DNA of 64,000 nucleotides from positions 9,928 through 73,927 of the forward strand of contig JBAZYP010000007.1 in NCBI GenBank assembly GCA_041659265.1, read 5' to 3'. Positions 12,123-63,870 of the stretch are shown here, piece by piece (position 1 is the first letter of the stretch; every line of letters begins with the position of its first letter). The translations under genes and the position numbers were made by a program. The notes below the pieces were generated by a model that saw only the letters and a list, made by a program, of their open reading frames with translations, had not been told where the DNA came from and ran no database searches. The stretch comes from Candidatus Pacearchaeota archaeon. GTDB lineage: Archaea; Nanobdellota; Nanobdellia; Pacearchaeales; GW2011-AR1.

Positions 12123-15100
12123 TTACATTGGAGCCTTAGTTTCATTTGAAAAAATTTCTTCCTTCATCTTTATATGAGGCGGAGATTTTTTTAATGGAAG
12201 TTGACTATTTAACATTTTTAAATCTTCATCAGGTTTTGACTTCCTATTTGATAGAAATACAAAAAATATTCCTGATAAAACTATTACAATAAAAACAATA
12301 TATATGAACTTCTTATTTTCTGGATTCTCAAATACAGCCATTCCAGTGGTTGTTGGTTTACCTAAAACAACTGACTGTCTAACATAATCCTCTTTATTTG
12401 AAGATAATGCAAAATACAAATAATAAACTCCAATAATATTTTCTGGAATCTCCATATTTATTATTCGTTCGTTTTCTCCAATAGACTCTATCTTAAATTT
12501 ATCTTCTATTCTTTTTATCTCAATTTTATCTTTATCAATTAACCAAATATTAACTGAAATATCTTTAGAGATATCAGAACTATTTAGGGTATAAGATATT
12601 GCCAAATTTCCTTTTTGATGTTCAACTTCTTTTATTTTAATAGATTCAAGTCCCTTAGGAATACTTACAGTAAGATTCTGGCCAGATCTTACTTCATTGC
12701 ATACAATTTCAATACTTCCTTTATATTCTCCAGAAATTGTTTCTTCAGGAATATTTATATCAAAAATAAAATTAATATTTTCACCAGGAGATAATCCAAT
12801 TAATTGTTTTGAATATATCCAAGAATTAATCTCTCCATTAACTACAAGTTTGCATTTATTTAAAAAAACATTACCCGAATTTTTAGCTAAAACAAAGAGA
12901 GTTTTTTTATCACCAGTTCTTGCAATTATATTATTAATCTTACTTATCTCTAATTTAACGATATTAGTCAAATTAACCTTTTGAACAAGTATTCCTCCCC
13001 CTCCTCCGCCAGAAGAACTTCCTCCAGTAGAAGGAGAATTAGTTGTTGAAGAAGTTGTTACATTAAAATAAGTTTTAACAATTCTTAAATTTTCACTTGT
13101 GTCTTCTGCAAACAAATTTAAAACATATTCAGAATCACTTGGAACATTAAAAGTTGTTGATGAGCAATCACTCAAAAGAACATTTTCAAGTCCTGAAACA
13201 GTTCCTCCAGTTGATTTATAGGTTACATTAAACCAACAAGTTAATTCATCATTGCTATCAACATTATCACTTGCACTAAATTGTAATGGTATTCCTGTCT
13301 TATAACTTTTAACTCCAACAGGTTCATTTATGGTTAAGCTTGGTGAAACTGTATCACTTAATATTGTAATATTATTTATAATAAATCTGTTGATATTATT
13401 AGCTGAATCATTTGAATAAATGCTGATATTATAATTTCCTTCAGTTCGGCTTGTTTCCATATAATTCTCTCCATTCAAACAATTTTGAATACTAATATTG
13501 GTTATGCCATTATCAAAACTATAAAAGCAGCCATCTAGATTAATTTCATCAACTGAAAAATTTATTATTACAGAGATATTTTTATAAAAGATCATATTAT
13601 CATTTAAAGAAAGATTACTAATAACAGGTAATGTTGTATCAATCTTTACAGTTCGATTATTAAATGCAAAACTTTGATAATTTCCAGCATAGCATTTTAC
13701 ATTCCATTTATAACTGCCATCGGATAAAGTCATATTGAATAAATTTATTCCTCCACTAGAATTTACAAAACTCATATTGGTTTTAACAATATTAAAGCTT
13801 CCATTATAATCCATATATAGACTGCAATTCCTTATTGAAGATAAACTATTTATAGAATAATTAAAATAATTAAAATTATTTTTACTCCAGAAATTCTCCA
13901 CAGGACTGATTAAATCAATTGCAAGTATTGTAGAAATAGAAAAACTTCTGTTCATATTAATTAAATTTCCAAAACTATCATTTGCAAAAAAATTAATTTG
14001 ATGATTTCCATCATAAGTATTAAATGAGGAATTCATGCATCCAGCTAAATTAATTTTAATTCCATTATCCAATTGATAATAACAAGAATCAATCCCACTA
14101 AAATCACTAATACTATAATTTAAACCTATGCTATTATTTTCTCCATAAGTTTTAGATTCAGGAGAATAAATATTAACAACAGGCGGAGTTATATCATTTA
14201 CATTAACAAAATAACTTTCAATTGAATAAGTATAGTTTTCAGTTTCTAAATATCTTGCAGTAATATTATAATTTCCAGGTTGTGAAAAACTAGTTAGATT
14301 ATAATATGAAGAATTTCCATTAGAATAAATATTGCCATTAACTAAAATCTGGATATTACTTTCAAAACCAGTCGATGTTGAATTAATAGCAAATATCTCT
14401 CCTTCATTTATTGTAAGATTATCTCGAATATTATTTAAATAAAGTCTTAGATTTGAATTTGCTTTAGTAACATTAATATAAACCCTAACTCCGCTAGAAT
14501 TCATAATATAATTAGTATCTCCACTTGAATTAATAAAATATTCATAATAACCTGCAGCCAATGTCTTATTTAATGAATTTTCGCTACTTACTTCCAATCC
14601 ATTTCTAAATAAATTTATTTCACCACTTTCAGAATTTCCACTAACATTAACTTGTCTAAGATATTCAGAAGTAATATTCTGATAAATATTATCTACAAAT
14701 AATCTAACAGAATTTGATATTTTATTAACTATTAAAGTCTTATTTATACTTCCAGCAGAATAATTTTCTCCACCACTAGTATTATAAAAATAATTATAAA
14801 TTCCAGCATTTAAACTAACGATATTTGGATTTGAAACAAGAATTCCATCTCTATATAGTTCATAAATAAGATCAGAATCTCCAATATTGTTTTCAATTGT
14901 TGATGTACTTGTTTGAACACCATAATTTACAATTGAAGAAGGAGTTATTGTAATATTCATAGTTAAATTAGGATTAGCTTTATTTATATTAGCAAATAAA
15001 ACAAGATCACTAATACTATCTGTATAATTCTCATTTCCACTAGAATTAACCCTATATTCGTAATTTCCAGCACCTAATAATAAATTTTGATTATTTATTG

Positions 15101-16652
15101 AACTTATATCATTACTATCCCTAAATAAGTTTATGCTTCCACCATTAGTTTTAGCAGATGCATTAAGATTCTGTTGATAAATTAAAGAAACATTATTTGC
15201 CTGGTTATTTAATAGAAGAGTTAATGTTGGAGCAATCTTATTTACAGTTAGAGTTTTAATATAACTTCCAGAACTATAATTAGAACATCCTGAAGTAGAA
15301 TAATTAAATATTGTTTCCCCTCCCCTATAAATAGTATTTGATTTATCCATTGTATAAATACAATCAGAATCACCAGAATTAGTTTCACCACCAATATAAT
15401 CTGAAATAACTCCATAATTAATAAGACTTGTTCCGGTAATAGTCATATTATTTGCAGGACTAATTTTATTTATAACAAAACTGCTTACATTTTCTGAATA
15501 ACTGTAATTCTGAGTACCTAAAAGACTGCAATTAAAAACATGTGTTCCAGCTCCAAGAACTAATGGTAAACCAGAACTTATTATATTTCCATTTAGTCTT
15601 AAAACAGCACTTCCTATTCCGGAAATTACTGAACAATTTGGAATTATTGAATTAGTATAATCTTGTGGAGAGATTTTATCAAAAAATAAAGAAGTTTGAG
15701 AATTTGATTTGCTTATAACATAACTTCTATTCTGGCTTCTATTATAATTTCCATTACTATCATTACCATACCAAAAATATTCATAAGTTCCAGTTGCTAA
15801 ATTACTCTTATTAAAAATAAAAATATTTGATATATTAATAATTAAATTTCTAGAAAGATTATTTCCATTAAATACAGCCCCCATATAATTTATATTTGAT
15901 TCAGTTATAGTGATATTAAAATAATAATCTTGCCCATATTGATAATTACTTCCGTTTATTGGATATTCATTATAGTCAGAAAAACCAGGAGGATTTGAAT
16001 CAATTATAATTCCTGAAATAGTTAGATTATCAATTCTGCAATATTCAGAAATAGCTCCTGCAGTACATTCAAACTTTATTTTAAAATTAGAATTATTATT
16101 AGCTGAACTTGTTAAATTAAACTGTTTTTCAACATATGACGCATCATTTGCAGAATTTGATCTTTCAATTTCATGCCATGTTGAACCATCAAACCATTCA
16201 ACACTAAACCAATCAACAGTGTCTAATCCAATTAACTTTCTATAATATCTTACAGAAATATTAGTATAACTATTAGTTGAATATATCTTTTCCATTACTG
16301 CGGCAGGTTCAGTTGAACCTGGAGCGTTTACTTGAATATGATAACTTCCAGAATAAGGATCAAGTGTAGAAGCACCCCAGTTAACTCCATTATTATTAGA
16401 TAAAGTCCAAGATGAAATACTTCCAGATTCAAATCCCTCGCTATGTATATTATCAGCCAAAATTCCCCCAATCATCATTATCATAAAAAATCCAAATAAA
16501 AATAGAGAGATATTTTTCTTTCCATTTTTCATTATATCTCTTATAACAAGTTCAATCTTCTTTGAAAGCATTATTGCATTTTCTTCACAATATTTTTGAA
16601 AATCAGAATAAGTCTTACTATCTATACTTAAAGTAACCTTCTTTTTTCCCAT
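12123..16652 (-). CDS. Giant (1509 aa) N-glycosylation-sequon-rich surface protein. It has an RHH-like N-terminal 40 aa, one TM helix, a jelly-roll-like domain, tandem Ig-like repeats, a poly-Gly linker and a C-terminal anchor module.
   Basis: Uninterrupted ORF with an ATG at 16652. N-terminus: KKVTLSIDSKTYSDFQKYCEENAIMLSKKIELVIRDIM, then the TM helix ISLFLFGFFMIMMIGGILA. It also has repeated ..AG.Y.Y....G..NY.. units and a C-terminal TM helix FIYIVFIVIVLSGIFFVF. Confidence 0.85.
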   Translation of the reverse strand: MGKKKVTLSIDSKTYSDFQKYCEENAIMLSKKIELVIRDIMKNGKKNISLFLFGFFMIMMIGGILADNIHSEGFESGSISSWTLSNNNGVNWGASTLDPYSGSYHIQVNAPGSTEPAAVMEKIYSTNSYTNISVRYYRKLIGLDTVDWFSVEWFDGSTWHEIERSNSANDASYVEKQFNLTSSANNNSNFKIKFECTAGAISEYCRIDNLTISGIIIDSNPPGFSDYNEYPINGSNYQYGQDYYFNITITESNINYMGAVFNGNNLSRNLIINISNIFIFNKSNLATGTYEYFWYGNDSNGNYNRSQNRSYVISKSNSQTSLFFDKISPQDYTNSIIPNCSVISGIGSAVLRLNGNIISSGLPLVLGAGTHVFNCSLLGTQNYSYSENVSSFVINKISPANNMTITGTSLINYGVISDYIGGETNSGDSDCIYTMDKSNTIYRGGETIFNYSTSGCSNYSSGSYIKTLTVNKIAPTLTLLLNNQANNVSLIYQQNLNASAKTNGGSINLFRDSNDISSINNQNLLLGAGNYEYRVNSSGNENYTDSISDLVLFANINKANPNLTMNITITPSSIVNYGVQTSTSTIENNIGDSDLIYELYRDGILVSNPNIVSLNAGIYNYFYNTSGGENYSAGSINKTLIVNKISNSVRLFVDNIYQNITSEYLRQVNVSGNSESGEINLFRNGLEVSSENSLNKTLAAGYYEYFINSSGDTNYIMNSSGVRVYINVTKANSNLRLYLNNIRDNLTINEGEIFAINSTSTGFESNIQILVNGNIYSNGNSSYYNLTSFSQPGNYNITARYLETENYTYSIESYFVNVNDITPPVVNIYSPESKTYGENNSIGLNYSISDFSGIDSCYYQLDNGIKINLAGCMNSSFNTYDGNHQINFFANDSFGNLINMNRSFSISTILAIDLISPVENFWSKNNFNYFNYSINSLSSIRNCSLYMDYNGSFNIVKTNMSFVNSSGGINLFNMTLSDGSYKWNVKCYAGNYQSFAFNNRTVKIDTTLPVISNLSLNDNMIFYKNISVIINFSVDEINLDGCFYSFDNGITNISIQNCLNGENYMETSRTEGNYNISIYSNDSANNINRFIINNITILSDTVSPSLTINEPVGVKSYKTGIPLQFSASDNVDSNDELTCWFNVTYKSTGGTVSGLENVLLSDCSSTTFNVPSDSEYVLNLFAEDTSENLRIVKTYFNVTTSSTTNSPSTGGSSSGGGGGGILVQKVNLTNIVKLEISKINNIIARTGDKKTLFVLAKNSGNVFLNKCKLVVNGEINSWIYSKQLIGLSPGENINFIFDINIPEETISGEYKGSIEIVCNEVRSGQNLTVSIPKGLESIKIKEVEHQKGNLAISYTLNSSDISKDISVNIWLIDKDKIEIKRIEDKFKIESIGENERIINMEIPENIIGVYYLYFALSSNKEDYVRQSVVLGKPTTTGMAVFENPENKKFIYIVFIVIVLSGIFFVFLSNRKSKPDEDLKMLNSQLPLKKSPPHIKMKEEIFSNETKAPM

Positions 16653-16690
16653 AAAAAACTTATGTTTTTTTCATTTATAAATCTATTTCT

Positions 16691-16730
16691 ATGTATTTCT
16701 TTAGAAATATATGTATTTCTTTAGAAATAT
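16691..16730. promoter_or_regulatory. Perfect 20-bp tandem direct repeat (2 copies plus a degenerate half copy at 16681..16690), each containing the inverted repeat ATTTCT-nn-AGAAAT; candidate operator upstream of the 1509 aa gene
   Basis: atgtatttctttagaaatat occurs at 16691..16710 and 16711..16730. The repeats lie 39-78 nt upstream of the ATG (16652), just upstream of the TATA-like ATTTATAAAT at 16673..16682. Confidence 0.5.
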
Positions 16731-16787
16731 ATTATGATATAGATTTTTTTTCTATAATAATAAAGAAAAAAAGAAAAAAAGAAAAAA

Positions 16788-18188
16788 TTAATTAGAAGTC
16801 AATTTTATATTATCAACCCTGCAGAATTCCGAAGTAGCTCCGGCAGTACATTCAAATCTAATCCTAAAATTAGGATTATTATTTGCACTTGATGGAAGAC
16901 TAAACTCTTTAGATAAATAACTAGCGTCATTAGCTGAACTTGATCCAGTCTGTTCTAATACAAACCAGGTTGTTCCATCATACCACTTAACCTTAAATTC
17001 ATCAGCAATATCCAGTCCAATAAGCCTTCTATAATAACTTAATTTAAGATTACTAAATCCGCTTGTAGATACCGCCTTTTCTATACTTGATGCAGGTTCT
17101 GTAGTGGACATAGGTTTAACTTCAGCTGAATAACTTCCTTGATAAGGATTCGTTGTAGTTAAAGACCAATAATTAGCTGCACTAACTTTTGTTAATATCC
17201 AAGAACTAAACCCATTTTCAAAATCTTCAAAAAAGATTTCTCCAAGATTGCCTATTGGACAATCAACAATGCAATTATTACTATCTTCTCCCTGTTCACA
17301 AACTAAATTTCCACATACAGGTGGATTAGGTAAACTAGGTACAATAAAATTAGTACTTGCAACATTATTTATAGAATTTGCAAACCAAATATAATTCCTA
17401 ACCCTTTGTTCACTTGATAAACCAGTTATACCATCATTTTCAAATGCTTCAGCATGAACACTCATTAAAAGCAAGTTATCTGATTTAATTGCAGCAGGAA
17501 GTTCTCCAGATAGTTCACTAAAACTCATAAGTTTCTCTCCAATTATAGTATTAGGAGTATCTTTATATCCTCTTGTTGGCCCTCCGTAATAAACCATATT
17601 TTCACCATTGCTTAAAGTAGTAACTTTATATGGAGTATTAGAATCATAATCAGCAATCTCTAATATAGATCCTTCAACAGTTGGATATTTGCCTAGTAAA
17701 TCTCCCCAATCATAATAACTACCTTGCCAGTAATAATCAGATGCAGCATAATAAAATCCTGCACATATTCCGACATAAGCTTTACCGCTATTAATATAAT
17801 TATTTATATTGGTTTTTCCTTCTGTACTAAGACTTCTCTGTTGATAATATGCATTCCCACCTGGTTGAATATAGATTTTTAAATTAGGATAATTTGCAAG
17901 ATTACAATTTTTTACATCAGAACTTTTAAGCTCTTGATATATAATATTAGAATCTTGTAATTTCCACCAATCTAAAAAATGAATTATCCATGATCTGGAT
18001 AAATCACCAACTCCTCCGAATCCAGTCTCACCATAAAATACAACATTTGTATTGGAATTTATTGGGCAAGTTGGAACACTTGGAGGTTTAGCTAAAACAA
18101 AAACCATAGTTGATGCAATTACTAAACAAATATAAAAAACAAAAATATATTTTTTAATTTCATAAATTTTTTTATCCCCTCCTTTCAA
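16788..18188 (-). CDS. Secreted protein with a class-I glutamine amidotransferase-like (BPL_N-like) domain and a C-terminal jelly-roll-like domain shared with the 1509 aa protein
   Basis: N-terminal TM/signal. LKIYIQPGGNAYYQQ...SGKAYVGICAGFYYAA resembles the GATase1/BPL_N nucleophile-elbow region. The C-terminal ~145 aa align with residues ~70-215 of the neighbouring giant protein. Confidence 0.55.
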   Translation of the reverse strand: MKGGDKKIYEIKKYIFVFYICLVIASTMVFVLAKPPSVPTCPINSNTNVVFYGETGFGGVGDLSRSWIIHFLDWWKLQDSNIIYQELKSSDVKNCNLANYPNLKIYIQPGGNAYYQQRSLSTEGKTNINNYINSGKAYVGICAGFYYAASDYYWQGSYYDWGDLLGKYPTVEGSILEIADYDSNTPYKVTTLSNGENMVYYGGPTRGYKDTPNTIIGEKLMSFSELSGELPAAIKSDNLLLMSVHAEAFENDGITGLSSEQRVRNYIWFANSINNVASTNFIVPSLPNPPVCGNLVCEQGEDSNNCIVDCPIGNLGEIFFEDFENGFSSWILTKVSAANYWSLTTTNPYQGSYSAEVKPMSTTEPASSIEKAVSTSGFSNLKLSYYRRLIGLDIADEFKVKWYDGTTWFVLEQTGSSSANDASYLSKEFSLPSSANNNPNFRIRFECTAGATSEFCRVDNIKLTSN

Positions 18189-53813: not shown

Positions 53814-54020
53814 CTATCTTTCTTTTTCTCCTTTTTTTCTTAAAGAGTTTGATTTTTCAATAATTCCTTTATTTTCATTTACGATATTATTTCCATTAGA
53901 AAGATTTTTTATTGCATGTTCAACAACATGACTTCTATTCCTAAATTCTCCAGAATCAATTAGACCATCTATAAGTGATATAGTTTCTTTATCAAATGTA
54001 AAACTTGCCCTCTCTTTCAA
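53814..54020 (-). CDS. Ribbon-helix-helix (CopG/NikR-like) DNA-binding protein, directly upstream of the giant gene
   Basis: 68 aa with a TTG start. ASFTFDKETISLIDGLIDSGEFRNRSHVVEHAIKNL fits the RHH strand-helix-helix consensus. It ends 38 nt before the giant gene's ATG. Confidence 0.6.
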   Translation of the reverse strand: MKERASFTFDKETISLIDGLIDSGEFRNRSHVVEHAIKNLSNGNNIVNENKGIIEKSNSLRKKGEKER

Positions 54021-54259: not shown

Positions 54260-54769
54260 TTAAACATTATATTTTTTATCTTCACCTAATCTGGATAGAA
54301 GTTCATTAATCTCTTTTTTCAATTCAATATTATTTAGTTCACGGTTTAATGCATATTTATTAATAATTTCTAATTCTTTTTTTTGATGCGCCATTTCCTC
54401 TTCAAATTGTTTTCTTTGAGTTATATCCCGGATAAACGCAATTGCACCAATAAACAATTGAGAATCAAATATAGGATATTGTCTTGAAGAAAAAAATCTT
54501 TTATTACCATTTATTATGATTTCATAATCATATGTAGCACTTTCCCCTAGTTGATTTTTTTCATAAGAATCATTAAATAAATTATTCATAAATTCCGGCA
54601 TAATTTCAGAATATATTTTACCTAAAAAATATTCAGGAGAAAAAAGTAATAGATCTTGCATAGATTTAGAAATATGACAAAAAATAAATCTTTTATTATT
54701 ATCAAAAACAAAAATAAGTTCCTCACAATATTTTAATAAATCTCCATTTAAAATATTTTTAATATCCAT
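54260..54769 (-). CDS. Single-PAS-domain protein with a conserved C-terminal coiled-coil motif; no output domain
   Basis: 169 aa. PAS core with ..GAIAFIRDITQRKQFEEE. The C-terminal motif ALNRELNNIELKKEINELLSRLGEDKKYNV is shared with the 1039 aa PAS protein. Confidence 0.7.
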   Translation of the reverse strand: MDIKNILNGDLLKYCEELIFVFDNNKRFIFCHISKSMQDLLLFSPEYFLGKIYSEIMPEFMNNLFNDSYEKNQLGESATYDYEIIINGNKRFFSSRQYPIFDSQLFIGAIAFIRDITQRKQFEEEMAHQKKELEIINKYALNRELNNIELKKEINELLSRLGEDKKYNV

Positions 54770-57800: not shown

Positions 57801-58858
57801 TTTTCATTAATAACCTTATTTCCTTCATTATTAATTTCTTCAACATTCTCTTTTTCAGTTGATTTAATATTATCCTCCTTTCCATTAATACCCTCTTTTA
57901 AATTAGAATTCTCTTCACTTGATTCGTCAATTATTTCATCTTCATTTAAAATTTCATTAGATCCAGAACTATCTTCCTCTTCATTTAAAATTTCATTATA
58001 TTCAGAAATATTTTTATCATCTATAGATAAATTACTAATTTCATCAGAATCATCATAATCATTATTAGTGTTATTTTCTTCAATATTTTGATTATGAGAT
58101 TCATTTAAACTTTCAAAGGTTAGATTTCCTTCATTATATTGATTAGTCTCAACAATTTCTTCAGATTTATTATAATCTTTTTCTTTAATCAAATCTTCTT
58201 TAAGTTCTAAATTTTTTAATTCTACAAAATTATAAAAACTCCTTTTTTTAATTTTATTATTAATAATTTCTAATTTATTTCTTTTAACATCGCGAATATT
58301 ATTACCTTCGCTTTTTAAAATATTCTTTCTAAAAATTTTATTATCTTCATTAATAGAGAATAATTCTTTTTCTTGATTTAATAATCCCTTTATTTTTTCT
58401 TCACTGATTTCTATATCTTGCAAATTTTCATAAGTTAAGGTATAATCCTTTGAATATAATATTTCAATATCTTTAACATCATCAGGCTTTTCAAATTTAA
58501 GCTGAATATTTGGATTTTTTAATTCTAATTCATTCTTTCCTGTTAAATCAATTTGAAATATGGCTTCACAAACTTTCCAACCATCATCATTTTCAGGATT
58601 TTTCCAATGACAATTTATTTTTGGTTCAGTAGAGATAATAACCCCTGATGAATTTGAAAATTTGTATCCATTTAAATTAACTTCACTACCTTCACTTATC
58701 TCAGGCATTTCTATCTCACTTTTAGCAGATAAAATATCTTCAGTATTTTTTATTGAAAATAAAGTCAAATTTGGAACAGAAGAAATAAAAAATAATAAGA
58801 AAAAAATAAGAAAAAAACTCGTTATAAAAAATATTATTTTTTTTCTAGCTTCAGTCAT
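54824..58858 (-). CDS. Large (1344 aa) surface protein with an N-terminal TM helix, an acidic low-complexity region, a long right-handed parallel beta-helix (PbH1/NosD-like) repeat array and a C-terminal anchor module
   Basis: Repeating ..N.I.....GI.L..S..N.I.NN.I.. units run over about 600 aa. An E/D/N/S-rich stretch covers about residues 225-400. The C-terminal TM helix is LFYIGFLSLILTGILSILL. Confidence 0.85.
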   Translation of the reverse strand: MTEARKKIIFFITSFFLIFFLLFFISSVPNLTLFSIKNTEDILSAKSEIEMPEISEGSEVNLNGYKFSNSSGVIISTEPKINCHWKNPENDDGWKVCEAIFQIDLTGKNELELKNPNIQLKFEKPDDVKDIEILYSKDYTLTYENLQDIEISEEKIKGLLNQEKELFSINEDNKIFRKNILKSEGNNIRDVKRNKLEIINNKIKKRSFYNFVELKNLELKEDLIKEKDYNKSEEIVETNQYNEGNLTFESLNESHNQNIEENNTNNDYDDSDEISNLSIDDKNISEYNEILNEEEDSSGSNEILNEDEIIDESSEENSNLKEGINGKEDNIKSTEKENVEEINNEGNKVINEKEGNKDSEDEIESEGEGIGTDEGNGYGESEGDGELKSSFISGLVVKMFDESNEVEKPLAILVRFEIPKYDSNSFDFLISEGETQAKIDPDISECGDLNTINGIYVLDRDFESTETCFTISADNITLDCNNHKIGHSLESPGYGIYSSYSNTRILNCIIYEANDDITPTRNIFLSDSSNSQIINNTLNISGTSSYNLYIEGGINNLVLNNDIKVYSEDSYGFFADYTEINLSNNNITTYATNNYGGYLNSITNSYITNNFFNASGNSSFPILIQSSELIDMNENQILSFGNYSYLIYIDSSNFINLTENNITSYGLDSYDLYIVNYTNNSNFESNQLNLNNFDSATCSILMQNSFGNNFINNSIFISGGDSSGICFNQVQNFTIRDNNIIAYLDSIYLVDSLNGNIINNNLTNFGLDNTGLYVSIGSNFSVVNNSFYSNNDSSYGFYLEYLTESNISGNYFFIFHPNSYSIYLTSESDYTKLDSNSITSIGFQSYGASLSASSYVNFTNNNISCYSLDGKCVYTSEIYYSNILNNSIFIFNETPYGLYINTDSSYNFFQTNNLFSDVDYSSLLVIENSINNNFSENNITQRGNNANGIYLSSCLGSTNYFYGERIYISGNDSKGINFYLSNANSIFEKLIFEIIEESAYSIFVTGSNNNFIIKDSNIGNYSQYGFYVSDSIDNGVWNFINTSIENIFWDSTSNAFLNYSFYINVYLNNTSGIPIPNANVSLKDNEGNLISLKTTDNDGRIYFIASEYIMENSETINYLSNYSIEINFMNESANFIINLSGNKEVFYQMDISEENIISYGGSGNQEILSIPSKKNEIVNNTNSIIPPKKIKPKKVTLFDISLRLLKKEINIGKKISGVIGLINVALPGKVNANLYYKITDMNDNLYIEEEEIVPVETQTEFIKEFDTSKLNEGEYKIFVKLDYLGQTEPAEAQETFIIKKGIGEGVANLIQGKLFYIGFLSLILTGILSILLHFYELKIRLKQK

Positions 58859-59064
58859 TATATATTTTTCATAGGCAAATCAACTGGCTGATATAGTTTT
58901 GCCATTCCAACCTTCCTTACAATCACTTTTTCTCCACCCTCTAATCTAGCTAAAATTATTCTTACAGCACCCCGGGATAATCCACTCTCATTAACTATTT
59001 CAGTAATAGTTAATCCTCCATTATTTGTTCTATTTAATATATCTAAAATTAATTTATCATCCAT
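58858..59064 (-). CDS. Small winged-helix DNA-binding protein, translationally coupled to the 1344 aa gene
   Basis: 68 aa. LTITEIVNESGLSRGAVRIILARLEGGEKVIVRKVGMAKLY looks like HTH plus wing. The TAATG stop/start overlap is at 58858, and AGGAG lies upstream of its ATG. Confidence 0.6.
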   Translation of the reverse strand: MDDKLILDILNRTNNGGLTITEIVNESGLSRGAVRIILARLEGGEKVIVRKVGMAKLYQPVDLPMKNI

Positions 59065-60177: not shown

Positions 60178-60744
60178 ATGAAAATTACAAAAAATGAAAA
60201 AAAGATATTAAAATTACTCCTATTAGATGCAAAAATCTCAGATATTGCTCTAGCCAAGGAATTAAAAATATCAAGTCAAGCTGTAGGAAAAATAAGAAAA
60301 AAATTAGAATCAACTATTATTGAATCTTATTCTATAAATCTAAACTATTCTAAATTAGGGATAAATCTTTTTGCAATAACACATTCAAAACTGACTCCAG
60401 AAGGACTTGATAAAGGAGAATTAGAAATTGAAGAAAAGCTTCTTGAAGAACCCAATATTATCCAAATTAATCGACTTCCAAGTGGAAATTCTACCCATAT
60501 TATACTATATGGATTTAAAGATATGGTTGAACTTGATGATTTCTTTCATTCACCTAAGAAAAAACATGAACTCCATAAATATATTGAAACTAAAGATATT
60601 TTTACATTTTCAAATCATAGTTTAATAAAGAATAATCCAAGACAATTATTTGAAAAAGTTATAGAAGAAACGAGTTGCGAAAATATTGAAACAACTTCTT
60701 ATTTTAAAGAATTAGAAAATTTCAAGAAAAAAATTAAAGAATAA
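60178..60744 (+). CDS. Lrp/AsnC-family transcriptional regulator
   Basis: N-terminal HTH_AsnC pattern NEKKILKLLLLDAKISDIALAKELKISSQAVGKIRKKLE..II, followed by an alpha/beta effector-like domain. Confidence 0.75.
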   Translation: MKITKNEKKILKLLLLDAKISDIALAKELKISSQAVGKIRKKLESTIIESYSINLNYSKLGINLFAITHSKLTPEGLDKGELEIEEKLLEEPNIIQINRLPSGNSTHIILYGFKDMVELDDFFHSPKKKHELHKYIETKDIFTFSNHSLIKNNPRQLFEKVIEETSCENIETTSYFKELENFKKKIKE

Positions 60745-60750
60745 AAATAA

Positions 60751-63700
60751 ATGGAAGAAATTGACTATAAGGCAATAATAGATAGTACTTATGACTGCGA
60801 AATAGTTAGAGATAAAAATTTGAATCTAATTTATGTTTCTCCTTCATTTGAAAGAATTTTTGGTTATAAAAATATTGATTATCTATCTGGAAAAATAAAA
60901 ACAGAAACAATTATTTATAAAGAAGATATAGATAAAATAAATAAATATTTCGAATTATTAAAAAAATTTGGAACTATAGAAGATTCTGAAATAAGAGGAA
61001 TTACAAAAGATAATAAAATTATTTGGTTATCCTTATCCTGTCAACCAATAAAAGATTCAAAAGAAAATAATATTGGAATGCGTTGTAGTTTAAGAGAAAT
61101 TACAAAAAGAAAAATTAATGAAGAAAATTTAAAAATTTCATTAGAAAAATTAGCTTTATCTCAAAAAGCAAGTAATTCAGGAGCATGGGATTGGGATATG
61201 ATTTCAAATAAATTATCTTGGACAGATGAATTTTATAACCTTTTTGGAATTAATAGAAAAGACTATCCGGAAAGTTTTGAAACATGGAAAAATCTGCTTC
61301 ACCCAGAGGATAAAGAAAGAACTATTAAGATATTAAATGAATCAATAATTAATAAAACCCACTTAAAAAATTATTATAGGATAATAAAACCCAATAAAGA
61401 AATTATCTGGATAGAAGCCTTAGGAAATACCTATTATAAAGATAATAAAGCGATTAGAATGTCTGGAATCTGTATTGATATAACAGAAAAAAAAAATATT
61501 GAAGAAAAATTAAAAGAATCTGAAGAAAGATTTAAAATACTTTCAGAATCTTCAATTAACGGCATATATCTTACTGATCCAAAAGGAGATTGTATCTATG
61601 CTAACCCTGCTTGGTTAGAAATGGCTGGAATTAAATTTAATGAAGCGCTAGGGAAAGGTTGGATAAACGCTCTGCATCCAGAAGATAAAAAGACAATAAG
61701 TGAAAATTGGTATAAAACAGTTGAATCAAATGGTAAATGGGCGTTTGAATATAGATTTATTACACCCTCAGGAAAAATTCATTGGATTTATGGTAGAGCT
61801 AAAGCAATATTTGATTTGAATAATCAATTAATTGGTTTTATTGGTAATAATACAGACATAACTGAAAAAAAAAGAATAGAATTAGAATTAAAGGAAGAAA
61901 AAGAAAAATTTAAAAAAATATTTGAAACAAGCCCATTAGTTCTAGGTTTATCAACAATTGAGGATGGAAAATATATAGAGGTTAATGAAAAATTTTTAGA
62001 AGTATTTGATTTAAAAAAAGAAGAAGTTATTGGTAAAACATCTAAAGAACTTAATATCTTCTCAAATTACGAGGATAGAAATAAGATTATCGAAAGTTTA
62101 AAAGAAAAGAATATAGAAAAAGGTATAGAAATAAAAATAAATACAAAAAAAGGACCTGTTCTTTATCAATTCTATATTTCAAAAACCTTTTATCAAGAAA
62201 AAGAACATTTATTGGTAATTGGTCAAGATATTAATGATAAAAAAGAATTTGAAACTAAAATAAAAGAATCTGAAAATTTTCTAAATCAGATTATTGAAAA
62301 TTTGCCTTTAATGATATTTGTTAAAGATGCTAAAGAGTTAAGATTTGAAATTTTAAATAAGAAAGGTGAAGAGATATTTGGACAAAAAAGTGAAAATATA
62401 ATTGGAAAAAATGATTATGATTTTTTTCCTAAAGATCAGGCTGAATTTTTCATAAAAAAAGATATGGAAACGATTAATAGTAAAAATTTAATAGATATTC
62501 CAGAAGAACCGATTAAATCACCAATGGGTGAAAGAATTCTACATACAAAAAAAATTCCTTTATTTGATGAAAATAATGTTCCAAACCACCTTCTAGGAAT
62601 TTCCGAAGATATAACTGAAAAAATAAATTTAAATAAACAGATAATAGAGAGTGAACAAAAATTTAAATCTTTATATTATTCTATGAATGAGGGGGTGGCT
62701 TTGCATGAATTAGTCTTTGATGATAAAAATAACCCTATTGATTATATTATCCTTGATGTAAATCCCAAATTTGAAGAAATTACAAATATTAAAAGAGAAG
62801 ATATAATAAATAAAAAAAGTATTGAAATTTATAAAACAAAAGAACCTCCTTATTTTAATGTCTATAAAGATGTTTCATTAAATGGAAAATCAACTAATTT
62901 TGAAAGCTATTTTGAACCTATGAAAAAACATTTCTCGATTTCAGCTTTTTCTCCATCTAAAAATAAATTTGCAACAATATTTACAGATATAACTGAAAAA
63001 ATTGAAAAAGAAAAAAGATATCTTGAACTTTTTAATAATATTAATGATGCAGTCTTTATTCACGATCTAGATGGTTATTTTTTAGAAGCAAACGAAGTAT
63101 CAATAAAAAGATTAGGTTATTCAAAAGAAGAATTATTAAAAATGAATCTAAAAAATATAGATTTACCAATTTTCCAAGAAAAAATAAAAGAAAGAGTTAA
63201 TAATCTTGTTAATAATGGATCCAACATATTTGAATCAGTACATGTTACAAAATCCGGAAAAGAAATTCCAGTAGAAATTAATACAAAAATTATAGATTAT
63301 CTAGGAAAAAAAGCCATTTTAAGTATTTCAAGAGACATATCAGAAAGAAAAAAGAATGAAGATATCTTAAAAAAAAGTTCTCAAGAATGGGAAACTACAT
63401 TTAATTCAATGCAAGACCTTATTTCCATACATGATAAAGATTATAGAATAATTAAAGTGAATAAGGCATTTGCAGATGCATTTAATCTTAAACCAGAAGA
63501 GATAATTGGAATGAAATGTTATGAACTGGTTCATTCTAAAACCAGTCCTCTTCCTTTTTGCCCACATAAAAAAGCTATGGAAGAGGGTTCCCCTCAAAAA
63601 TTAGAATATTATGATGAACATCTAAAATTATATCTTGAAGTTGGAACAAATCCCATTTATAATGAAAATAAGGAATTTATTGGTACAGTTCATGTTGTTA

Positions 63701-63870
63701 GAAATATTTCAGAAAGAAAAAATATTGAAAAAGAAATTATTATGAAAAGTCAAGAACTTGAAAAATTTAATCAATTTGCAGTTGGAAGAGAAATGAAAAT
63801 GATTGAATTAAAAAAAGAGATTAATAATTTATTAAATAAATTAAATGAAAAACCAAAATACGAAGTATAA
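60751..63870 (+). CDS. Multi-PAS (eight PAS/PAC units) sensor protein without a recognisable kinase or other output domain
   Basis: Eight PAC-end motifs were read directly: REITKRK, IDITEKK, TDITEKK, QDINDKK, EDITEKI, TDITEKI, RDISERK and RNISERK. It ends with AVGREMKMIELKKEINNLLNKLNEKPKYEV. No HisKA H-box or HATPase N/G boxes were seen. Confidence 0.85.
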   Translation: MEEIDYKAIIDSTYDCEIVRDKNLNLIYVSPSFERIFGYKNIDYLSGKIKTETIIYKEDIDKINKYFELLKKFGTIEDSEIRGITKDNKIIWLSLSCQPIKDSKENNIGMRCSLREITKRKINEENLKISLEKLALSQKASNSGAWDWDMISNKLSWTDEFYNLFGINRKDYPESFETWKNLLHPEDKERTIKILNESIINKTHLKNYYRIIKPNKEIIWIEALGNTYYKDNKAIRMSGICIDITEKKNIEEKLKESEERFKILSESSINGIYLTDPKGDCIYANPAWLEMAGIKFNEALGKGWINALHPEDKKTISENWYKTVESNGKWAFEYRFITPSGKIHWIYGRAKAIFDLNNQLIGFIGNNTDITEKKRIELELKEEKEKFKKIFETSPLVLGLSTIEDGKYIEVNEKFLEVFDLKKEEVIGKTSKELNIFSNYEDRNKIIESLKEKNIEKGIEIKINTKKGPVLYQFYISKTFYQEKEHLLVIGQDINDKKEFETKIKESENFLNQIIENLPLMIFVKDAKELRFEILNKKGEEIFGQKSENIIGKNDYDFFPKDQAEFFIKKDMETINSKNLIDIPEEPIKSPMGERILHTKKIPLFDENNVPNHLLGISEDITEKINLNKQIIESEQKFKSLYYSMNEGVALHELVFDDKNNPIDYIILDVNPKFEEITNIKREDIINKKSIEIYKTKEPPYFNVYKDVSLNGKSTNFESYFEPMKKHFSISAFSPSKNKFATIFTDITEKIEKEKRYLELFNNINDAVFIHDLDGYFLEANEVSIKRLGYSKEELLKMNLKNIDLPIFQEKIKERVNNLVNNGSNIFESVHVTKSGKEIPVEINTKIIDYLGKKAILSISRDISERKKNEDILKKSSQEWETTFNSMQDLISIHDKDYRIIKVNKAFADAFNLKPEEIIGMKCYELVHSKTSPLPFCPHKKAMEEGSPQKLEYYDEHLKLYLEVGTNPIYNENKEFIGTVHVVRNISERKNIEKEIIMKSQELEKFNQFAVGREMKMIELKKEINNLLNKLNEKPKYEV

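What the first reader, a model, noticed from the sequence alone, without database searches (positions are those of the whole stretch)
16530..16730. RHH-like DNA-binding module fused in frame to the cytoplasmic N-terminus of a 1509 aa surface protein, next to a tandem operator-like repeat
Residues 1-40 (MGKKKVTLSIDSKTYSDFQKYCEENAIMLSKKIELVIRDI) have the strand-helix-helix pattern of CopG/Arc RHH proteins. They are followed by one TM helix and about 1440 extracellular residues. Immediately upstream of the TATA-like element lie two perfect 20-bp direct repeats, each with an ATTTCT-nn-AGAAAT inverted repeat. This is the kind of tandem site RHH dimers bind. There are two explanations. One is a membrane-tethered one-component regulator that couples an adhesin to its own promoter (ToxR/CadC-like logic). 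The other is a separate small RHH gene that lost its stop codon, with the adhesin really starting at Met41 (16532; MKNGKKNISLFLF... is a plausible signal anchor). At the other giant loci the DNA-binding gene is separate, so this fusion is Rosetta-stone-type evidence for a functional link.
Basis: partly seen in the sequence, partly recalled or inferred. Interest (0 to 1): 0.65.

Follow-up and report, generated by a model that had tools for sequence, protein, structure and literature searches.

The report
DNA-binding regulator fused to adhesin's export signal
In this tiny symbiotic-type (DPANN) archaeon, a 40-residue DNA-binding switch that is normally a separate small gene in front of giant surface-protein genes has become the first part of the surface protein itself, ahead of its export signal, and its predicted binding sites lie in the gene's own promoter.

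Summary
ORF 12123..16652 (-) encodes 1509 aa. Residues 1-43 are a ribbon-helix-helix (RHH)-type module, followed by a signal-peptide-like hydrophobic segment. Two perfect 20-bp repeats (16691..16730) lie just upstream of a TATA box that starts 29 nt before Met1.

The module belongs to an unannotated DPANN-wide family: 506 cluster representatives, and 279 free-standing 43-76 aa homologs.
- In 48 of 64 species-level loci it is a separate 45-55 aa gene. In at least 35 of those it abuts or overlaps the start of a gene for a large signal-peptide protein.
- In 16 loci it is fused, as here.
- A syntenic ortholog (L069) has the split form with an ATGA overlap. Two others (L068, L071) have a small winged-helix gene in the same slot.

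The repeat motif TAYTTCY/RGAARTA is about 10-fold enriched in promoters of module genes (p=6e-16). It follows the regulator type, not the cargo type.

Best reading: an autoregulatory RHH-operator cassette for surface-protein genes, here fused so that the regulator is membrane-tethered, possibly as a cleaved signal-peptide remnant. DNA binding, cleavage and the sign of regulation are inferred, not shown. I found no published description.

The parts
16691..16730 (-). Two perfect 20-bp direct repeats. Each contains the 16-bp palindrome TATTTCT-AA-AGAAATA (half-sites 16723-16729, 16714-16720, 16703-16709, 16694-16700). Predicted operator for RHH dimers. Half-site centres are 9-11 bp apart, which places them on one face of the DNA.
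   Evidence: family-wide enrichment; motif follows regulator type
16684..16690 (-). Fifth half-site AGAAATA, 2 nt upstream of the TATA box, in the BRE position. The same arrangement, RGAAAKA next to TTTAWAWA, recurs in most related loci.
16674..16681 (-). TATA box TTTATAAA. It starts 29 nt before the A of the Met1 ATG, which implies a leaderless or near-leaderless mRNA beginning at Met1.
   Evidence: 29-31 nt in 29 of 40 related loci
16759..16787 (-). Oligo-T tract directly after the stop of the upstream 466-aa gene. Likely an archaeal terminator that separates the two transcription units.
   Evidence: sequence only; inference
16524..16652 (-). RHH-type module, residues 1-43: extended strand KKVTLSI (4-10), helix 12-24, helix 26-43. 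Nearly invariant family residues are K5 V6 T7 L8 S9, Y15, C22, A26, L29 S30 K31, I33, E34.
16455..16532 (-). Residues 41-66, MKNGKK-ISLFLFGFFMIMMIGGILA: basic n-region, h-region and a c-region ending in Ala. Aligns with the N-terminal cleavable signal peptides of split and module-less orthologs. Predicted signal-peptidase site after A66. Met41 is the probable relic of the ancestral start.
   Evidence: (A66 nearly invariant); cleavage itself is inferred
12123..16652 (-). Whole 1509-aa ORF: RHH module, signal peptide, about 1380-aa ectodomain (N-terminal FESG-type domain shared with the neighbouring 466-aa protein, then Ig-like repeats), C-terminal TM anchor, 42-aa cytoplasmic tail.
12252..12308 (-). 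C-terminal TM anchor (residues 1449-1467). It would hold the mature protein in the membrane after removal of the N-terminal signal peptide.

Best explanation
Residues 1-43 are a real, translated ribbon-helix-helix DNA-binding domain. It belongs to a DPANN-wide family of ~45-55 aa regulators related to DUF6364, RepB-RCR_reg and CopG.

The normal arrangement is a small leaderless gene whose stop overlaps the start of a gene for a large secreted surface protein. Its promoter carries 2-5 TAYTTCY/RGAARTA half-sites about one helical turn apart, running up to (and in many loci just past) the TATA box. RHH dimers are predicted to bind these sites side by side and control the transcription of their own operon. 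Repression is the more likely direction.

In this lineage the stop between regulator and cargo was lost. The regulator became a long cytoplasmic n-region of the cargo's Sec signal peptide.
- The full protein is made from Met1.
- The hydrophobic segment takes the ectodomain across the membrane, and the RHH stays on the cytoplasmic face.
- If signal peptidase cuts after A66, as in the split orthologs, each exported molecule leaves one ~66-aa membrane-tethered RHH peptide. The mature adhesin is then held by its C-terminal anchor. This reproduces the 1:1 regulator:cargo output of the split, translationally coupled pair.

Shown:
- the fold class;
- conservation of both fused and split forms;
- the promoter geometry;
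- the co-occurrence of motif and module.

Inferred:
- DNA binding to this motif;
- the sign of regulation;
- cleavage.
For: Fold
- 66 of 68 modules hit DUF6364 (best E 5.5e-7).
- 36 of 68 hit the CopG-like RepB-RCR_reg (best 1.3e-4).
- There are scattered hits to CcdA, BrnA, RelB, RHH_3 and RHH_5.
- The best PDB hit is SvtR, 2kel.
- hhalign to CopG places strand and helix 1 in register (prob 39%).
- AF2 gives an extended 1-11, helix 12-24 and helix 26-43 at pLDDT 77.
- Single-chain tandem duplicates P0160 and P0161 exist, as expected of a unit that works as a dimer.

Translated as protein
- The strand residues KVTLS and the helix-2 cap LSK are near-invariant in 68 sequences.
- Synonymous codon changes occur between orthologs.
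- Module identity is 41-77%, even where the ectodomains are unrelated.

Fusion is real and kept
- It occurs in 16 loci plus the window.
- Syntenic orthologs L001 and L002 are fused.
- Assemblies of two separate runs are identical.

Split counterpart
- In L069 a 47-aa module overlaps the giant's start by ATGA.
- At least 35 of 48 free modules are followed by a signal-peptide gene.

Same slot filled by another DNA-binding fold
- L068 and L071 carry a winged-helix gene there.

Operator
- 2.13 half-sites per 140 nt against 0.22 in controls.
- In the distal zone, 1.68 against 0.16 in 83 control TATA promoters, p=6e-16.
- wHTH-led orthologs have none.
- The window's only cluster is at this promoter.

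Start at Met1
- The TATA box lies 29-31 nt before the module start in 29 of 40 loci.
- Internal Met41 is not conserved.
- An SD-like motif of 4 nt or more precedes the downstream start in 27 of 43 split loci. It precedes an internal ATG in only 5 of 17 fused loci.
Against: - The window's own module scores below every Pfam gathering cut-off (16.5 bits against 27.3 for DUF6364).
- PDB sequence hits are marginal (E 0.2-0.6), and Foldseek found nothing.
- The first AF2 model, with the TM segment included, gave one continuous helix 12-42. No model shows a beta-strand, because a monomer cannot form the ribbon.
- No RNA or proteomic data exist for this organism (one search found DNA runs only). The TSS, the N-terminus and cleavage are therefore unverified.
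- The h-region is 19 residues, long for a cleavable signal peptide, so it may be a permanent anchor.
- The half-site next to the TATA box may be partly a generic BRE.
- In archaea, operator sites mostly upstream of BRE/TATA can mean activation rather than repression.
- M37 is conserved in free and fused forms alike. It could serve as a second start and cannot be excluded.
Confidence: 0.72

Rival explanations
1. Two products from one ORF. The fusion is tolerated, but the working adhesin is started internally (M37 or M41) with a normal short signal peptide. The Met1 product is then a minor by-product or a decaying remnant of the old regulator gene.
For: - MKNGKKNISLFLF... from Met41 is a textbook n-region plus h-region and aligns with the true N-termini of split orthologs.
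- M37 is present in nearly all fused forms.
- 5 of 17 fused loci keep an SD-like motif of 4 nt or more before an internal ATG.
Against: - The module is under strong purifying selection in fused genes and keeps all family-invariant residues.
- The fusion persists in at least 15 species-level genomes and with at least 3-4 unrelated ectodomain types.
- Promoter geometry puts a leaderless start at Met1.
- Met41 is not conserved. M37 is equally conserved in free-standing proteins, where it cannot be a start of anything.
- The window has only 'GAG' upstream of Met41.
Confidence: 0.13
2. The module does not bind DNA. It is an export-related extension of the signal peptide, like the ESPR of autotransporters or YSIRK motifs, or a small chaperone or targeting factor for very large secreted proteins. 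The upstream repeats would be bound by something else.
For: - The module is always associated with large secreted proteins, either encoded immediately upstream or fused to the signal peptide.
- No member reaches a curated RHH threshold for the window's own sequence.
- Foldseek gives no hit.
Against: - Most copies are soluble 45-55 aa proteins with no hydrophobic segment.
- Sequence hits converge on RHH DNA-binding families only.
- A palindromic motif co-occurs specifically with the module and disappears when a wHTH replaces it in front of orthologous cargo.
- The replacement in the same slot is itself a DNA-binding protein.
- There is no Pfam ESPR or YSIRK hit.
Confidence: 0.08
3. The small RHH is the antitoxin of a toxin-antitoxin-like or addiction module, and the fusion is incidental.
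For: - One source labels a free homolog 'antitoxin component of RelBE/YafQ-DinJ'.
- There are weak hits to CcdA, BrnA and RelB.
Against: - The downstream partner is a 100-2000 aa signal-peptide protein in at least 35 of 48 loci, not a small toxin.
- No toxin family was seen among the neighbours.
- The antitoxin hits reflect the shared RHH fold.
Confidence: 0.02

Closest known systems
CopG (pMV158), Arc/Mnt (P22) and omega-type RHH autorepressors
   Same: - About 45-aa strand-helix-helix unit of the same size as CopG.
- First gene of its own operon.
- Repeated or palindromic sites spaced about one helical turn apart and overlapping the promoter.
- Expected cooperative binding of several dimers on one DNA face.
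   Different: - Sequence similarity is only marginal (hhalign prob 39%).
- The host is a DPANN archaeon with a TATA/BRE promoter and leaderless mRNA.
- The cargo is a giant secreted surface protein.
- Here the regulator is covalently joined to the cargo's signal peptide.
SvtR (SIRV1 ORF56b, PDB 2kel), archaeal-virus RHH repressor
   Same: - Best PDB sequence hit.
- It is an archaeal RHH. To my knowledge, unverified here, it represses its own gene and a large structural (tail-fibre) protein gene.
   Different: - The hit is not significant (E 0.2-0.6).
- SvtR is viral and free-standing, and it has no link to a signal peptide.
Transmembrane transcription regulators (ToxR, CadC, TcpP; archaeal ArnR/ArnR1)
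   Same: A cytoplasmic N-terminal DNA-binding domain is followed by a single membrane-spanning segment and an extracytoplasmic part. The regulator acts while tethered to the membrane.
   Different: - The DNA-binding fold is RHH, not a winged helix.
- The membrane segment looks like a cleavable signal peptide.
- The outside part is a 1400-aa adhesin-like protein with its own C-terminal anchor, not a sensor domain.
- No evidence of signal sensing.
PutA (RHH domain at the N-terminus of a large membrane-associating enzyme)
   Same: The RHH is the first ~45 residues of a very large protein that autoregulates its own operon and partitions between DNA and membrane (from general knowledge).
   Different: PutA is a peripheral, cytoplasmic enzyme. 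It has no signal peptide, is not exported and is not homologous.
Signal peptides with post-targeting functions (enterococcal sex-pheromone peptides from lipoprotein signal peptides; MMTV Rem signal peptide)
   Same: If cleavage occurs, the released signal peptide would have a regulatory job of its own after export. This is an analogy from general knowledge.
   Different: - To my knowledge, no known case carries a folded DNA-binding domain in the n-region.
- Cleavage is not shown here.

Membership tests
Ribbon-helix-helix (MetJ/Arc/CopG) superfamily | N-terminal beta-strand followed by two helices in about 45 residues | tested here: met
AF2 on 68 sequences gives an extended 1-11, helix 12-24, a break at N25 and helix 26-43, with pLDDT 77. 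The strand itself cannot form in a monomer.
Ribbon-helix-helix (MetJ/Arc/CopG) superfamily | Profile similarity to curated RHH families | tested here: inconclusive
   The family as a whole converges on RHH-type models: RepB-RCR_reg 36/68, CcdA 11, BrnA 5, RHH_5, RHH_3, RelB. All hits of the window's own sequence are below the gathering cut-offs. PDB: SvtR E 0.2-0.6. CopG hhalign prob 39%. Foldseek: none.
Ribbon-helix-helix (MetJ/Arc/CopG) superfamily | Obligate dimer with an intermolecular two-stranded ribbon | not testable with these tools
   Only single chains can be modelled. Indirect support comes from natural single-chain tandem duplicates P0160 and P0161 and from tandem genes in L034, L037 and L061.
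Ribbon-helix-helix (MetJ/Arc/CopG) superfamily | Binds repeated or palindromic operator sites, usually in its own promoter | tested here: inconclusive
   The in-silico association is strong. Physical binding has not been tested.
Pfam DUF6364 (PF19891) | Score at or above the gathering threshold (27.3 bits) | tested here: not met
   The window module scores 16.5 bits, E 0.012. 66 of 68 relatives match at E<=1, best 5.5e-7. A few database homologs carry a precomputed PF19891 hit. It is a related family at best.
Transmembrane transcription regulators (ToxR/CadC type) | OmpR-type winged-helix DNA-binding domain | tested here: not met
   No wHTH hit was found; the module is RHH-like.
Transmembrane transcription regulators (ToxR/CadC type) | DNA-binding domain, then a single TM segment, then an extracytoplasmic domain in one chain | tested here: met
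   Residues 1-43 are the module, 48-66 are hydrophobic with KNGKK on the inside, and the ectodomain follows. The segment resembles a cleavable signal peptide, so the topology may be transient.
Transmembrane transcription regulators (ToxR/CadC type) | The extracytoplasmic domain senses a signal that changes DNA binding | not testable with these tools
   The ectodomain is adhesin-like (Ig-like repeats, weak Big_13). There are no data on sensing.
Extended signal peptide region (ESPR) / YSIRK-type signal-peptide extensions | Match to the ESPR or YSIRK motif models | tested here: not met
   No such Pfam or NCBIfam hit at E<=1.
Type II toxin-antitoxin (RHH antitoxin) | Adjacent small toxin gene | tested here: not met
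   The downstream partner is a large signal-peptide protein in at least 35 of 48 loci. No toxin was seen.

The most novel reading that the evidence does not exclude
The RHH is the n-region of a signal peptide that really is cleaved. Every exported adhesin molecule would then deposit one membrane-embedded RHH peptide, which might later be released by a signal-peptide peptidase. This peptide feeds back on the gene's own promoter. Transcription would be set by the number of molecules actually exported rather than the number synthesised. That would be a transcription factor delivered as a signal-peptide remnant, which to my knowledge has not been described in prokaryotes.
Probability: 0.3. Interest if true: 0.85.

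Novelty: new variant of a known kind. Interest (0 to 1): 0.62.

Why it matters
DPANN archaea are mostly uncultured. Their giant surface proteins are thought to mediate attachment to hosts, yet nothing is known about how these genes are controlled.

This work gives a concrete, testable regulator-operator pair. A 45-residue peptide can be synthesised chemically, and the motif is a defined 7-bp half-site. The pair recurs in front of such genes across Pace-, Woese- and Nanoarchaeota-type genomes.

It also shows that the slot directly upstream of giant genes is filled interchangeably by RHH, winged-helix or AsnC-type proteins. One dedicated regulator per giant gene therefore looks like a general rule.

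The fused form adds an architecture not described before: a folded DNA-binding domain ahead of a Sec signal peptide. It offers a natural experiment on membrane-tethered or export-coupled gene control.

Tried and rejected
- **The genome search / fetch from genomes:** I could not count module copies, or look for signal-peptide peptidase, in the window's own genome.
- **Foldseek:** the 47-aa model against PDB returned no match. The model is too short to be informative.
- **First AF2 job:** with the TM segment included, it merged both helices into one and was not used as evidence.
- **PDB profile searches:** only marginal hits.
- **Pfam and NCBIfam:** nothing for the extra ~95-aa N-terminal domain of some relatives or for the ectodomain.
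- **Sequencing runs:** only DNA metagenomes hold the locus, so neither the TSS nor expression could be examined.
- **Literature searches:** RHH+DPANN, DUF6364, membrane-bound RHH, and Pacearchaeota surface-protein regulators found no description.
- **Rejected ideas:**
  - assembly artefact;
  - generic promoter element (controls);
  - TA antitoxin;
  - a regulon spread through the window (one search found no other cluster).
Full report
**1. What is there**

The minus-strand ORF 12123..16652 encodes 1509 aa.
- It begins MGKKKVTLSIDSKTYSDFQKYCEENAIMLSKKIELVIRDI, followed by MKNGKK-ISLFLFGFFMIMMIGGILA-DNIHSEGFESG...
- It ends with a second hydrophobic anchor (residues 1449-1467) and a 42-aa tail.

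Upstream of the gene, in gene orientation, lie:
- an oligo-T tract after the stop of the preceding 466-aa gene;
- two perfect 20-bp repeats (16730..16691), each holding the palindrome TATTTCT-AA-AGAAATA;
- a fifth half-site AGAAATA (16690..16684);
- TTTATAAA (16681..16674);
- the ATG 29 nt after the first T of the TATA box.

Half-site centres are 9, 11, 9 and 10 bp apart, about one helical turn. Two metagenome runs from different years and studies give contigs identical to the window over 16300..16900.

**2. The module is a family, and it is RHH-like**

A search with residues 1-230 found 36 large (1048-1868 aa) DPANN proteins.
- About 27 begin with the same ~40 residues. This includes proteins whose ectodomains belong to other families (DNRLRE, Laminin_G_3-like and others).
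- Five lack the module and start directly with a short signal peptide.

In 68 aligned modules the residues K5 V6 T7 L8 S9, Y15, C22, A26, L29 S30 K31, I33 and E34 are invariant or nearly so.

Scanning each member against Pfam gave DUF6364 in 66/68 (best E 5.5e-7), the CopG-like RepB-RCR_reg in 36/68 (best 1.3e-4), and scattered CcdA, BrnA, RelB, RHH_3 and RHH_5 hits. The window's own sequence stays below all curated cut-offs.

Further fold evidence:
- The best PDB sequence hit is the archaeal-virus RHH repressor SvtR, 2kel, at E 0.2-0.6.
- hhalign against CopG aligns strand and helix 1 in register, prob 39%.
- AF2 with the 68-sequence alignment gives an extended 1-11, helix 12-24, a break, and helix 26-43 at pLDDT 77.
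- Foldseek found nothing for so short a model.
- Natural single-chain tandem duplicates exist (P0160, P0161).

I take the RHH assignment as likely (about 85-90%) but not proven.

**3. Split and fused forms**

A scan of one genome per species returned 64 loci, nearly all labelled as DPANN-type archaea (Pace-, Woese-, Nano- and one Micrarchaeota; seven carry an 'uncultured Methanosarcinales' label).
- In 48 the module is a free-standing 45-55 aa ORF. A few have an extra ~95-aa N-terminal domain or occur as tandem copies.
- In 16 it is fused to an ORF of about 1150-1870 aa where complete (two of the 16 are cut short by contig ends), and is followed by a hydrophobic segment.
- In at least 35 of the 48 free cases the next gene starts within -40..+250 nt of the stop, in most cases overlapping it by a few bases. 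That gene encodes a protein of 150 aa or more with a signal-peptide-like N-terminus.

A library-wide profile search found 506 cluster representatives. Most are 43-110 aa. Eleven of the best 150 are 664-1465 aa with the module at the extreme N-terminus, and several shorter ones are contig-end fragments of fused proteins. A word-based search found 279 short homologs, all 'hypothetical' apart from one 'antitoxin' label.

**4. Direct orthologs**

The window's gene order is a ~240-aa gene, then a BPL_N-like ~470-aa gene, then the giant. This order recurs in L001 and L002 with the module fused.

In L069 the order is the same but the module is a separate 47-aa gene, MVKKKVTLSIDDKTYIRFQKYCEENDIQLSKRVERLMLKEIDDGGKK*. 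Its stop overlaps (ATGA) the giant's start MRKFLFIILFCTVFFICSVNA|ATVYSEGFESG.

In L068 and L071 the same slot, again with an ATGA overlap, holds a 66-68 aa winged-helix protein that scores above the gathering cut-off for HTH_24.

So the position in front of this cargo is reserved for a small DNA-binding protein of either fold. The fusion is most simply explained by loss of the stop of a formerly separate gene.

The same rule holds inside the window:
- a 68-aa RHH-like gene (53814..54020) precedes the 4859-aa gene;
- a 68-aa wHTH (58858..59064) overlaps the start of the 1344-aa gene;
- an AsnC-type gene (60178..60744) precedes the 1039-aa gene.

**5. The repeats are a module-specific motif**

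Reading the 110 nt upstream of all module genes shows TAYTTCY and its complement RGAARTA. The two often form the palindrome TAYTTCY-NN-RGAARTA, in 2-5 copies, next to a TTTAWAWA box.

| Measure | Module promoters | Controls |
|---|---|---|
| Half-sites per 140 nt | 2.13 (63 promoters) | 0.22 (368 other gene upstreams in the same loci); 0.26 (AT-matched); 0.17 (shuffled) |
| At least 2 half-sites | 65% | 3.5-4.7% |
| Palindromes | 24% | <1% |
| Half-sites in the distal zone, -112..-12 from TATA, which excludes a possible BRE | 1.68 (40 promoters) | 0.16 (83 control TATA promoters) |
| At least 1 distal half-site | 85% | 12% |

The distal-zone difference gives Mann-Whitney p=6e-16.

In the window the only cluster in 64 kb is at this promoter. 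Orthologous cargo genes led by a wHTH have no such half-sites and carry GCATTAAYG-type repeats instead. The motif follows the regulator, not the cargo. The near-invariant strand residues fit one shared recognition sequence.

**6. Which start?**

- The TATA box begins 29-31 nt before the module's start codon in 29 of 40 loci. It is exactly 29 nt in the window and in several fused orthologs. This is the geometry of leaderless archaeal mRNAs, which must start translation at their 5' end.
- Met41 is not conserved among fused proteins. M37 is conserved equally in free proteins.
- SD-like motifs of 4 nt or more precede the downstream start in 27 of 43 split loci. They precede an internal ATG in only 5 of 17 fused loci, and the window has only GAG.
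- The long product is therefore most likely made. A minor internal start cannot be excluded.

**7. How it most likely works**

- *Shown:* fold class, conservation, gene linkage, promoter geometry, motif association.
- *Inferred:* RHH dimers bind the five half-sites on one DNA face, up to the BRE/TATA, and autoregulate the gene.
  - Repression is favoured by RHH precedent, by the half-site in the BRE position, and in many free loci by a further site just downstream of TATA.
  - The mostly upstream position of the sites leaves activation possible.
- *Membrane topology:* the basic KNGKK flank keeps the RHH cytoplasmic. The h/c-region aligns with the cleavable signal peptides of split orthologs, A66 is nearly invariant, and the protein has its own C-terminal anchor. 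I therefore expect cleavage (about 60%). Cleavage would leave a ~66-aa membrane-tethered RHH for each exported molecule, which is the fused equivalent of translational coupling.

**8. Comparison and novelty**

In function it resembles CopG/Arc-type autorepressors. In topology it resembles membrane-tethered regulators such as ToxR/CadC, or PutA. It is a member of neither of the latter two, and only a distant relative of curated RHH families.

I found no paper describing the family, its linkage to surface-protein genes, or an RHH ahead of a signal peptide. Earlier notes of this scan reported the same kind of fusion in two other genomes. These are leads, not independent evidence.

I class it as a new variant of a known kind.

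Noticed in passing
window 53814..54020 (-): A 68-aa RHH-like ORF (MKERASFTFDKETISLIDGLIDSGEFRNRSHVVEHAIKNL...; ParD_antitoxin E 0.07) lies 38 nt upstream of the 4859-aa giant gene (start 53775). It is a different RHH family from the fused module.
   Followed up: partly
window 58858..59064 (-): A 68-aa winged-helix protein (HTH_24, 26.7 bits, above the cut-off) has a stop that overlaps the ATG of the 1344-aa surface-protein gene. It is clearly related to the wHTH proteins that occupy the RHH slot in front of orthologs of the 1509-aa protein in L068 and L071.
   Followed up: partly
window 60178..60744 (+): A 188-aa AsnC/Lrp-like HTH regulator ends 6 nt before the 1039-aa gene (60751..63870). This is another pair of a dedicated regulator followed by a giant gene.
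   Followed up: partly
L010, L011 (fused); L028, L047, L048, L062, P0255 (free, ~135-160 aa); P0011, P0014, P0029, P0034, P0036: An extra ~95-aa domain (…FxxWFxxNYxxLGYSKIIRGDISxCPDFIMLKxGKEVxVELET…HxH…, a PD-(D/E)xK-like motif) precedes the RHH module in some relatives. No Pfam hit was found.
   Followed up: partly
P0160, P0161; L034, L037, L061: Tandem RHH modules occur either in one polypeptide (103-108 aa, a single-chain pseudo-dimer) or as two adjacent genes.
   Followed up: no
L068:1164-1303, L071:1158-1297: Promoters of the wHTH genes that replace the RHH carry repeated GCATTAATG or AGCATTAACGC motifs. These are a candidate operator of that wHTH family.
   Followed up: no
L069:1480-1510 (and other split loci): The split junction lies in an A-run (GGTAAAAAATGAGAAAA). 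A 1-nt insertion or a 2-nt deletion there (not a single-base loss) would join the two frames. This could explain repeated fusion or fission, and in principle slippage-based switching.
   Followed up: no
L044 and L054 (control promoters): Two non-module promoters in these loci also carry 2-3 TAYTTCY half-sites. They may be further targets of the RHH.
   Followed up: no
window 54260..54769 (-): A 169-aa PAS-domain protein (PAS_4, E 4e-7) sits between two giant surface-protein loci.
   Followed up: no
window 16788..17235 and 16010..16450: The C-terminus of the neighbouring 466-aa BPL_N/GATase-like protein and the N-terminus of the mature 1509-aa protein share a ~145-aa domain (…YYRKLIGLD…FECTAG…C RIDN…). 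Synteny of the two genes is conserved in L001, L002, L068, L069 and L071.
   Followed up: partly
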